The notes: a model not told the origin generated them from the letters alone. 64,000 bases of DNA from a virus (IMGVR_UViG_3300027741_000022:96001-160000); one strand, 5' to 3'; shown: positions 9,790 to 9,926, numbered from the stretch's first letter. Numbers and translations are program-made.

Positions 9790-9926
9790 CTGACGAAACA
9801 GGTTTCGAACCTGTAACCTAGCGGTTATTCCACTGTTGGGAATTGAACCCAATAAATATCCAGCTTTTTGAGCTTCAATTCAGTGGCTTTGTACAGCCGC
9901 TCGCTCTACCGTTGAGCTATTCGCCA
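9790..9926 (-). tRNA. tRNA-Asn(GUU) interrupted by 65-nt insert in anticodon loop
   Basis: TGGCGAA/TTCGTCA acceptor, G73; AGCGG/CCGCT stem; loop CTGT|TAA after removing 9828-9892. Confidence 0.75.

What the first reader, a model, noticed from the sequence alone, without database searches (positions are those of the whole stretch)
9790..9926. tRNA-Asn whose anticodon loop carries a 65-nt insert that itself folds like a mini-tRNA
Seen (minus strand): a normal tRNA body is split as CTGT|insert|TAA. The insert (9828-9892) has an acceptor-like stem CCACTG/CAGTGG and a T-arm TTGGG-TTCAATT-CCCAA directly abutting it, plus a small AGCT/AGCT hairpin. It is far too short for a group I intron and lacks the core motifs of the other four introns. 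Inference: it could be a non-self-splicing intron removed by RNase P/Z-type cleavage and religation, a decoy or shield against anticodon nucleases, or a dead tRNA scarred by integration of another tRNA fragment.
Basis: partly seen in the sequence, partly recalled or inferred. Interest (0 to 1): 0.7.

Follow-up and report, generated by a model that had tools for sequence, protein, structure and literature searches.

The report
tRNA-shaped mini-intron in phage tRNA-Asn
The only asparagine tRNA gene of this large uncultured phage is split in the middle of its anticodon by a conserved 65-base insert folded like the top half of a tRNA. It matches neither known kind of tRNA intron, and it is probably cut out by ordinary tRNA-trimming enzymes and resealed by the phage's own RNA ligase.

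Summary
Window 9790-9926 (-) is a tRNA-Asn(GUU) gene (Rfam 50.2 bits) with its own promoter and terminator. A 65-nt insert (9828-9892) sits between anticodon bases U35 and U36. Four related phage contigs carry the same insert, and compensatory changes occur in all four of its helices, so it is not a scar.

Six other, unrelated insert families sit at the same spot in phage tRNA-Asn genes. In every family the stack from the T-loop mimic to the base of the outer stem is 11 layers plus one mismatch, the 7+5 length of a real tRNA.

It is not a group I intron and not an archaeal BHB intron, and it matches no Rfam ribozyme.

T4 Rnl1-type ligase is enriched in these phages (p about 0.01). RtcB and EndA are absent.

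My best reading is excision by RNase P and RNase Z, then sealing by the phage ligase. In this family the 3' boundary fits RNase Z exactly, but the RNase P site lies 5 nt inside the intron. That leaves an unexplained A-rich flap.

This scan has already reported the same kind of insert on other phage DNA. The only mention in print is a remark on Lak megaphages (PMC6784885).

The parts
9938..9965 (-). Sigma-70-type promoter of the tRNA gene: TTGATT, 16-nt spacer, TGgTATAAT. It ends 11 nt before tRNA position 1.
   Evidence: 10 of 12 matches plus an extended -10 TG. A -10-like element lies at the same distance in L015, L023 and L027.
9893..9926 (-). 5' exon, tRNA positions 1-35, ending ...AGCGG-CUGU (C32 U33 G34 U35)
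9828..9892 (-). 65-nt insert (mini-intron) between U35 and U36
9887..9892 (-). Conserved single-stranded A-rich leader A-Y-A-A-A-G. The last G faces an A as the purine-purine 12th layer of the stack.
   Evidence: It resembles natural tRNA 5' leaders of these phages, for example AACAAA|G before tRNA-Thr.
9881..9886 (-). Outer (acceptor-like) stem, 5' strand, CCACUG
   Evidence: helix 4: 100% paired, one pair changed on both sides (G-C to U-A) and one on one side
9855..9880 (-). Second arm: lower stem AAUU/AUAUU, upper stem AGCU/AGCU, and an invariant CAAAA loop
   Evidence: helices 5 and 6: three pairs changed on both sides (UU/AA to CC/GG in L025; U-A to C-G in L023 and L027)
9836..9852 (-). 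T-arm mimic: 5-bp stem closed by G-C (like G53-C61) and the 7-nt loop UUCAAUU (T-loop pattern U-U-C-R-A-N-N)
   Evidence: (helix 7)
9830..9835 (-). Outer stem, 3' strand, CAGUGG, contiguous with the T-arm mimic (coaxial stack of 11 layers)
9828..9829 (-). Two-nt tail: an A facing the leader's G, then a variable A/U in the discriminator-like position. The predicted RNase Z cut falls right after it, which is the 3' boundary.
9790..9827 (-). 3' exon, tRNA positions 36-73, beginning UAA-CCGCU and ending with discriminator G73. No CCA is encoded.
9744..9781 (-). Intrinsic terminator (16-pair stem followed by a T run) directly after the tRNA
6196..6879 (+). Free-standing HNH endonuclease gene. Its homologues lie 84-128 nt from the mini-intron tRNA-Asn in relatives G001 and G004. 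It is a possible homing partner; this link is inferred.

Best explanation
This is an expressed phage tRNA-Asn(GUU) gene. Its anticodon is interrupted between U35 and U36 by a protein-dependent intron of a barely described kind. The 65-nt intron folds into a three-arm 'mini-tRNA'. An acceptor-like stem is coaxial with a T-arm mimic, and together they have the length of a real tRNA acceptor/T minihelix (11 layers plus a G.A mismatch). A second arm carries a conserved CAAAA loop. I propose that the host's tRNA end-processing enzymes treat the intron as a nested pre-tRNA. RNase Z would cut after the discriminator-like base (window 9828|9827), which frees the 3' exon exactly at U36 with a 5' phosphate. 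RNase P would cut at the base of the outer stem (window 9888|9887). That leaves the 5' exon with a 3'-OH and five extra bases (ACAAA), which a 3' exonuclease would have to trim back to U35. The two halves stay paired through the acceptor and anticodon stems, and the phage's T4 Rnl1-type ligase seals the anticodon loop. What is shown: the gene, the fold, its conservation, the ruler geometry, and the presence and enrichment of the ligase. What is inferred: every enzymatic step, and above all the trimming of the 5-nt flap.
For: The exons form a full tRNA-Asn with U1-A72, G73 and the loop CU-GU/UAA. Their only stem changes are compensatory (G3-C70, G-U, A-U). About 8% of exon columns vary against about a third of intron columns. 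The gene has its own promoter and terminator. It is the only tRNA-Asn in G000, G001 and G004. All four intron helices covary, and G.U pairs fix the minus strand as the RNA strand. Seven unrelated intron families sit at the same 35|36 site in 30 viral contigs. All have a T-loop hairpin and a stack of 11 layers plus one mismatch. The 5' boundary falls on the RNase P ruler in 6 of 7 families. The 3' boundary falls on the RNase Z ruler in this family and in L017. None of 39 tRNA genes in G000, G001 and G004 encodes CCA, so these phages already depend on RNase Z-type 3' trimming. The intron's ACAAA|G leader resembles genuine tRNA leaders of these phages. G000 encodes a homologue of T4 RNA ligase 1 (PF09511 at 49 bits; PDB 2C5U at E 3e-15). 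All 7 intron-bearing records that are at least 60% complete carry an ATP-dependent RNA ligase. Rnl1 is present in 5 of 7 of them against 1 of 12 control phages with an intronless tRNA-Asn (p = 0.0095). G000 and the otherwise unrelated type-C phage G013 share only two proteins by blastp, and one of them is this ligase. No polynucleotide kinase was found in G000, G001 or G004, which fits ends that already carry 3'-OH and 5'-P.
Against: In this family the RNase P ruler predicts a cut 5 nt downstream of the 5' boundary (n + l5 = 17, not 12). No known precise activity removes such a flap. In five other families the 3' boundary lies 3 nt beyond the RNase Z site. RNase P and RNase Z alone therefore give a clean anticodon loop only in the L017 type. 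RF00005 and ARAGORN do not recognise the insert as a tRNA. In this one sequence the nearest-neighbour MFE prefers another hairpin by about 7 kcal/mol. Rnl1 and Rnl2 are common anti-nuclease repair genes of large phages (PMC7824862), so the enrichment may be confounded by phage type. The sample is also small and its lineages are not independent. G000, G013 and G016 also share a metallophosphoesterase (phrog_547), which hints at healing of cyclic-phosphate ends and so at a different nuclease. There is no RNA data of any kind.
Confidence: 0.42

Rival explanations
1. It is a spliced intron, but an unidentified dedicated endonuclease (phage or host) cuts it by measuring from the tRNA body or anticodon stem, as the eukaryotic splicing endonuclease does. 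The ends are then healed by a phosphoesterase and sealed by Rnl1. The T-arm mimic would serve only as a folding or docking handle.
For: The exon-side boundaries are constant (always U35|R and N|U36). The intron-side spacers differ between families: 6 and 2 nt here, 1 and 5 nt in five families, 1 and 2 nt in L017. All inserts are at 35|36 and none at 36|37 or 37|38. A metallophosphoesterase (phrog_547) is one of only two proteins that G000 shares with the unrelated G013. In G016 it lies next to a polynucleotide-kinase-like gene and about 4 kb from Rnl1.
Against: It does not explain why the 5' spacer is exactly one mismatched purine in 6 of 7 families, or why the stack is always 11 layers. phrog_547 is missing from the closest relatives G001 and G004. 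No kinase is present in G000, G001 or G004. EndA is absent. No candidate nuclease is shared across the lineages.
Confidence: 0.25
2. It is not spliced. Either the 137-nt chimera, or the mini-tRNA released from it, is the working product. It could be a decoy for a tRNA-binding host defence or processing factor, with the tRNA-Asn body acting as a stable expression and processing scaffold.
For: The single-stranded leader AYAAAG and the CAAAA loop are conserved in sequence. RNase P and RNase Z would release a neat mini-tRNA but leave untidy exons. G016 and G017 carry an ordinary tRNA-Asn gene alongside the interrupted one.
Against: Every family keeps the complete set of Asn identity features and both halves of the anticodon loop (G73, U1-A72, CU-GU/UAA). 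A search with the insert alone found it only inside intact tRNA-Asn exons. In G000, G001, G004 and G013 the interrupted gene is the only tRNA-Asn. No stand-alone copy of the insert was found.
Confidence: 0.18
3. It is a new small self-splicing or self-cleaving ribozyme. The T-loop module and the A-rich linker would build the active site.
For: It has conserved unpaired A-rich segments and a T-loop, which is a common tertiary-docking module. No nuclease gene is shared by all lineages.
Against: At 48-68 nt the inserts are far smaller than any known self-splicing RNA. No residue next to either boundary is conserved across the families. No Rfam ribozyme family matches at E up to 10. The last intron base is not a G.
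Confidence: 0.06
4. It is a dead tRNA gene scarred by insertion of a tRNA fragment, or an assembly artefact.
For: In print, tRNA genes of bacteria and their viruses are known to carry group I introns only (my own knowledge).
Against: The same insert occurs in five independent contigs and three metagenome contigs, with compensatory changes. The promoter and terminator are intact. The exons are conserved.
Confidence: 0.03

Closest known systems
'Enigmatic' introns in tRNA genes of Lak megaphages (Devoto et al. 2019, PMC6784885, read)
   Same: These are short introns in the anticodon region of phage tRNA genes. They are conserved between genomes, and one of them was noted as possibly encoding a tRNA. 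No mechanism is known.
   Different: The paper makes only a remark. It reports no fold statistics, no ruler geometry, no enzyme association and no family survey. The host (Prevotella), the phage lineage and the tRNAs (Thr, Tyr) all differ. I could not test sequence homology to this insert because I had no Lak sequences in hand.
Group I introns in bacterial and phage tRNA anticodon loops, including the four in this same window
   Same: They sit inside the anticodon loop of a bacterial-type tRNA gene. The 5' exon ends in U. The phage context has free-standing endonuclease genes nearby.
   Different: This insert is 65 nt against about 200 nt. It has no P3-P9 core and no RF00028 match, its last base is A or U rather than G, and it has no similarity to the resident group I introns.
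Archaeal and eukaryal bulge-helix-bulge tRNA introns (EndA/Sen endonuclease plus RtcB or Trl1 ligase)
   Same: They are small and protein-spliced, they lie in the anticodon loop, and the exon halves stay paired until they are ligated.
   Different: No bulge-helix-bulge can be drawn here. Archaeal tRNA-Asn introns at the same nominal site end in a stretch complementary to exon 1 and have no T-loop hairpin. The phage is bacterial: it carries a tmRNA, rIIA/rIIB and sigma-70-type promoters. EndA and RtcB are absent.
T4 tRNA maturation and repair: RNase P, RNase BN/Z for CCA-less phage tRNAs, and Rnl1 sealing of broken anticodon loops (my own knowledge of the T4 literature)
   Same: The proposed pathway uses exactly this enzyme set. 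This phage is a distant T4-like virus, its tRNAs lack encoded CCA, and it has an Rnl1 homologue.
   Different: In T4 the break is made by a host anticodon nuclease and needs Pnkp healing. Here the break would be programmed by a nested tRNA mimic, and no kinase is found.
tRNA-like structures used as processing signals: mitochondrial tRNA punctuation, and MALAT1 mascRNA (my own knowledge)
   Same: A tRNA-shaped element recruits RNase P and RNase Z to cut a longer RNA at its own borders.
   Different: In those cases the flanking RNAs are released and are not rejoined. Here they would have to be ligated to make a working tRNA.

Membership tests
tRNA (RF00005), for the two exons | Full-length match to the tRNA covariance model above the gathering score, and a cloverleaf with a 7-nt anticodon loop once the insert is removed | tested here: met
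   50.2 bits against a cut-off of 29, model positions 1-71. ARAGORN calls the joined exons tRNA-Asn(gtt).
tRNA-Asn | Anticodon GUU, discriminator G73 and a class I variable loop | tested here: met
   The sequence shows these directly. The same features are kept in all seven intron families. Aminoacylation cannot be tested here.
tRNA (RF00005), for the insert itself | Recognisable as a tRNA by a covariance model or by ARAGORN | tested here: not met
   There is no second RF00005 match at E up to 10. ARAGORN finds nothing in the insert. The insert mimics only the acceptor/T minihelix and carries one extra arm.
tRNA acceptor/T minihelix mimic (substrate shape for RNase P, RNase Z and the CCA-adding enzyme) | A T-loop (U-N-C-R-A-N-N) closed by G-C, and a coaxial stack of 12 layers from the loop to the end of the stem | tested here: met
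   The loop is UUCAAUU and the closing pair is G-C. The stack is 5 + 6 = 11 pairs plus a G.A mismatch. The same total holds in all seven families (type B was counted by eye). Cleavage by the enzymes themselves cannot be tested here.
RNase P/RNase Z-excised intron (proposed kind) | Both exon boundaries fall on the enzyme rulers: the 5' cut at layer 12, and the 3' cut one base after layer 12 | tested here: inconclusive
   The 3' boundary is on the ruler (n + t = 13). The 5' boundary is 5 nt off (n + l5 = 17) in this family. Both boundaries fit only in L017.
Group I intron (RF00028) | The catalytic core P3-P9, a size of about 200 nt or more, and a terminal G | tested here: not met
   The insert is 65 nt. 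RF00028 gives no match at E up to 10, although the same scan finds three group I introns elsewhere in the window. The last base is A or U.
Archaeal/eukaryal BHB intron | Two 3-nt bulges separated by a 4-bp helix at the splice sites, and an EndA-type endonuclease available | tested here: not met
   The best 4-bp helix (GCUG/CAGU) leaves an 8-nt rather than a 3-nt bulge on the 3' side (my inspection). EndA is absent from G000, G001 and G004. The phage has bacterial hallmarks.
Known small self-cleaving ribozymes (hammerhead, twister, pistol, hatchet, HDV-like and others in Rfam) | A match to the family covariance model | tested here: not met
   No such match at E up to 10 in 9700-10000 on either strand.
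Lak-phage 'enigmatic' tRNA introns | A short, conserved, tRNA-like insert in a phage tRNA anticodon region | not tested
   The description matches.

The most novel reading that the evidence does not exclude
A third mechanistic class of tRNA intron exists, confined to bacteriophages. The intron is a nested tRNA mimic that recruits the cell's RNase P and RNase Z to cut it out. A phage T4 Rnl1-type ligase, until now seen only as a repair enzyme against anticodon nucleases, is the splicing ligase. The A-rich flap of this family would reveal an added trimming step. Free-standing HNH endonuclease genes beside the gene would spread the intron by collaborative homing.
Probability: 0.3. Interest if true: 0.9.

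Novelty: new variant of a known kind. Interest (0 to 1): 0.76.

Why it matters
In textbooks, bacterial-type tRNA genes carry only self-splicing group I introns, and protein-spliced tRNA introns belong to archaea and eukaryotes. A recurrent tRNA-shaped intron, too small to splice itself, in viruses of bacteria would show that protein-dependent tRNA splicing also occurs in the bacterial world. It would give phage RNA ligase 1 a housekeeping role beyond repair. It would also show a new use of tRNA mimicry: a built-in processing signal that must be followed by ligation. In practice, standard bacterial tRNA finders miss these genes. ARAGORN in default mode missed this one, and with introns allowed it called it Ile. 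Phage tRNA repertoires and codon-supply analyses are therefore biased. The case is directly testable with a T7 transcript, purified RNase P and RNase Z, and the cloned ligase.

Tried and rejected
**Relatives among isolated phages.** blastn of the locus against 50,697 phage records found no match. The lineage is known only from metagenomes. The closest portal protein is 50% identical, in an uncultured 595-kb phage.

**Known RNA families.** An Rfam scan at E up to 10 on both strands found no ribozyme, intron or second tRNA in the insert.

**Remnant of a group I intron.** I aligned the insert to the four group I introns of the same genome and found nothing above shuffles. This idea is rejected.

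**BHB motif.** It cannot be drawn here, and real archaeal tRNA-Asn introns look different. This idea is rejected.

**Single-sequence MFE fold.** The long AAUUGAA/UUCAAUU hairpin is broken in the relatives and shows no compensation. This fold is rejected.

**Enzymes sought and not found.**
- RtcB.
- EndA.
- RNase Z-like beta-lactamase fold.
- AAA_33 and PNK3P kinase/phosphatase, in this family.

**Other candidates.**
- The unannotated 269-aa neighbour gene (10653-11462) has only sporadic homologues. I dropped it as a candidate nuclease.
- The phrog_547 phosphoesterase is shared with G013 and G016 but missing from the nearest relatives G001 and G004. It is not a universal partner.

**Intronless and stand-alone copies.**
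- The search for an intronless allele of this tRNA found only unrelated high-GC phages with the same anticodon arm.
- Searches with the insert alone in viral and metagenome contigs found no stand-alone copy and no copy in another tRNA.
- Inserts at 36|37 or 37|38 were not found. The single hit was a chance match downstream of a normal tRNA.

**Literature.** Eight full-text searches found no description of this intron type beyond Devoto et al. 2019.

Full report
**What is there.** The window is bases 96,001-160,000 of a 187,644-bp uncultured virus record (35% GC, about 75% complete). The virus is a distant T4-like phage: it has rIIA/rIIB and a T4-type portal protein, and its nearest relative is an uncultured 595-kb phage. 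It also carries a tmRNA.

On the minus strand, 9926-9790 matches the Rfam tRNA model end to end at 50.2 bits, with a 68-nt gap in the anticodon loop. Removing 9892-9828 leaves a 72-nt cloverleaf that ARAGORN calls tRNA-Asn(gtt). It has U1-A72, G73 and the loop CU-GUU-AA. Its anticodon arm is then identical to those of ordinary uninterrupted phage tRNA-Asn genes. The boundaries are unique. The 5' exon ends in U35 and the next base is A. The 3' exon starts at U36 and the base before it is A, so the junction cannot slide.

The gene is a transcription unit of its own. A TTGATT-16-TGgTATAAT promoter ends 11 nt upstream, and a 16-pair terminator follows directly downstream. It lies antisense to its neighbours.

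**The insert is a selected structure.** A search with the insert alone found the same element in four other viral contigs (L015, L023, L025, L027). It also found three lake metagenome contigs that duplicate two of them. Every copy lies inside intact tRNA-Asn exons.

The fold is an outer stem, a second arm that I extend by a lower stem, and a T-arm mimic abutting the outer stem. It is 97.5% paired and has six pairs changed on both sides. No shuffle out of 500 reaches it, and slid controls pair at 27-47%. The alternative hairpin that RNAfold prefers for this one sequence is broken in the relatives and shows no compensation. Several G.U pairs mark the minus strand as the RNA strand.

About 8% of exon columns vary, and the stem changes there are all compensatory. 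About a third of intron columns vary. In the three large relatives (G000, G001, G004) this is the only tRNA-Asn gene among 7-16 tRNAs. Together these facts rule out a scar or a pseudogene.

**It belongs to a wider class.** I searched IMG/VR with a pattern that fixes only tRNA-Asn exon bases and allows 40-70 nt between GU and UAA. Thirty contigs matched, carrying seven unrelated insert sequences of 48-68 nt. At least 120 contigs have the uninterrupted form. No contig has an insert at 36|37 or 37|38.

All seven families share three features: an outer stem, a variable inner region, and a hairpin near the 3' side with a 7-nt T-loop (U-U/G-C-R-A-N-N). That hairpin is closed by G-C in six of the seven families.

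The number of stacked layers from the T-loop to the base of the outer stem is 11 in every family. One more purine-purine or A.C mismatch follows, which gives the 7+5 = 12 layers of a real tRNA acceptor/T minihelix (type B was counted by eye).

The same pattern run on one genome for each of 185,579 prokaryotic species gave three kinds of hit:
- archaeal tRNA-Asn introns, whose 3' ends pair with exon 1 and which lack a T-loop;
- tandem-duplication artefacts;
- one 2.9-kb contig, binned with a Crocinitomicaceae genome, whose insert is identical to viral type B.

The T-loop inserts therefore look specific to phages.

**What it is not.**
- It is not a group I intron. It is 65 nt long, gives no RF00028 match although the same scan finds three group I introns in this window, does not end in G, and has no similarity to the four resident group I introns.
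- It is not a BHB intron. The motif cannot be drawn, the phage has bacterial hallmarks, and EndA and RtcB are absent.
- It matches no Rfam ribozyme.
- It is not itself a tRNA by RF00005 or ARAGORN.

**How it most likely works.** The constant 12-layer geometry is the ruler that RNase P, RNase Z and the CCA-adding enzyme use on tRNAs. None of the 39 tRNA genes of G000, G001 and G004 encodes CCA, and most are followed by U-rich trailers. These phages therefore already depend on RNase Z-type 3' cleavage, as T4's CCA-less tRNAs depend on RNase BN/Z (the T4 comparison is my own knowledge).

In this family the base after the mismatch is variable (A or U) and acts like a discriminator. The 3' exon starts immediately after it, which is exactly where RNase Z would cut. 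In six of the seven families the 5' exon ends exactly one layer below the stem, at the RNase P site, usually as U|G.

Cuts by RNase P and RNase Z leave 3'-OH and 5'-P ends on two tRNA halves that stay paired. This is the natural substrate of T4 RNA ligase 1.
- G000 encodes an Rnl1 homologue (PF09511; PDB 2C5U at E 3e-15).
- All seven intron-bearing records that are at least 60% complete carry an ATP-dependent RNA ligase.
- Rnl1 is present in 5 of 7 of them, against 1 of 12 comparably complete phages with an uninterrupted tRNA-Asn of the same type (Fisher p = 0.0095; counted by lineage, 4 of 5 against 1 of 12, p = 0.0099).
- In the small type-D fragments the ligase gene lies within a few kb of the tRNA.
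- An all-against-all blastp found only two proteins shared between G000 and the unrelated 54%-GC phage G013: this ligase (E 1e-36) and a metallophosphoesterase.
- No polynucleotide kinase was found in G000, G001 or G004.

**What does not fit.** In this family the 5' boundary is not on the RNase P ruler. A conserved single-stranded leader, A-Y-A-A-A-G, lies between U35 and the stem. RNase P would therefore leave ACAAA on the 5' exon (n + l5 = 17). The leader looks like a genuine tRNA leader of these phages, for example AACAAA|G before tRNA-Thr. That suggests the intron is a small pre-tRNA with its leader included. Its removal back to U35 would still need a 3' exonuclease or another nuclease, and nothing I know of does this precisely.

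Five other families show the mirror problem, with three extra bases after the discriminator-like position. Only L017 fits on both sides.

The phosphoesterase shared with G013 and G016 lies next to a kinase in G016. It hints at healing of cyclic-phosphate ends, and so at a different, unknown nuclease. It is absent from G001 and G004, however.

Rnl1 and Rnl2 are also common repair genes of large phages (PMC7824862). The enrichment is therefore suggestive, not proof.

I give the RNase P/RNase Z-plus-ligase route 0.42. An unknown nuclease that measures from the exons gets 0.25, an unspliced or cargo RNA 0.18, a ribozyme 0.06, and a dead gene 0.03.

**Why a phage would keep it.** This part is inference. 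A free-standing HNH endonuclease gene (window 6196-6879; PHROG HNH families at E 1e-17 to 1e-18) has homologues 84-128 nt from the interrupted tRNA-Asn in G001 and G004. A PD-(D/E)XK endonuclease gene lies between two group-I-intron tRNA genes. The tRNA regions of these phages are thus sites of endonuclease traffic, as the T4 tRNA cluster is for SegB. An intron that splits the target site could protect its carrier and spread with the neighbouring endonuclease (collaborative homing). I did not test this.

**Novelty.** Eight full-text searches found no description of such introns. The one exception is a remark by Devoto et al. 2019 that some Lak-megaphage tRNAs contain 'enigmatic' introns, one of which may encode a tRNA.

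This scan has already reported the same kind of insert on other phage genomes, including the L015 relative of this family. I used those notes as leads only.

- the family-level covariation;
- the constant 11+1 ruler across seven families;
- the exclusive 35|36 position, and the absence of T-loop inserts of this pattern from prokaryotic genomes apart from one small binned contig;
- the controlled Rnl1 enrichment, and the clear statement that this family breaks the simple RNase P/RNase Z model on its 5' side.

Noticed in passing
window 6920-7198, 23619-23891, 24415-24688, 51989-52285 (+): Four more tRNA genes carry group I introns of about 200 nt in the anticodon loop. ARAGORN with introns allowed finds all four. 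Rfam RF00028 reaches its cut-off for three of them and misses 23619-23891. A cluster of this size in one phage is unusual.
   Followed up: partly
window 23619-23891 and 24415-24688 (+): ARAGORN calls both tRNA-Leu(UAA), but both have short class I variable loops. With a group I 3' end at G, the first reads CUU|...G|UUAA, which is more likely tRNA-Lys(UUU). The second gives a class I tRNA with anticodon UAA, a shape that LeuRS would not be expected to accept. G001 has an uninterrupted 74-nt tRNA with the same anticodon.
   Followed up: partly
window 24734-25095 (+): A phage-encoded tmRNA (Rfam 123 bits) with tag GTVNYAMAA lies directly after an intron-containing tRNA. Relative G004 has one with tag GTNSYAMAA next to its interrupted tRNA-Asn.
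   Followed up: no
window 23990-24403 (+): A small PD-(D/E)XK endonuclease gene (PF11645, E 9e-17) lies between two group-I-intron tRNA genes. It has a homologue inside the tRNA cluster of the unrelated phage G016. It is a likely free-standing homing endonuclease.
   Followed up: partly
window 8162-8761 (+): A 199-aa metallophosphoesterase (PF00149, phrog_1649) lies 1 kb from the tRNA-Asn gene. It is 62-66% identical in G001 and G004, where it is not near the tRNA. It is a possible RNA end-healing enzyme, but this is untested.
   Followed up: no
G016 199596-199721 and 200267-200340; G017 53387-53530 and 47245-47319 (genome coordinates): Two complete phages carrying other mini-intron families have both an interrupted and an ordinary tRNA-Asn(GUU) gene. 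In those phages the interrupted copy is not the sole source of tRNA-Asn.
   Followed up: no
G016 about 287.5-293.1 kb (loci L143): A likely RNA heal-and-seal cluster: an Rnl1-type ligase, a 134-aa AAA_33 polynucleotide-kinase-like protein, and a phrog_547 metallophosphoesterase within 6 kb.
   Followed up: partly
L104 (Crocinitomicaceae MAG contig DORI01000202.1, 2.9 kb): The only bacterial-bin hit for a T-loop mini-intron has an insert identical to viral family B. It is either a mis-binned phage fragment or a hint that Flavobacteriales are the host of that family.
   Followed up: no
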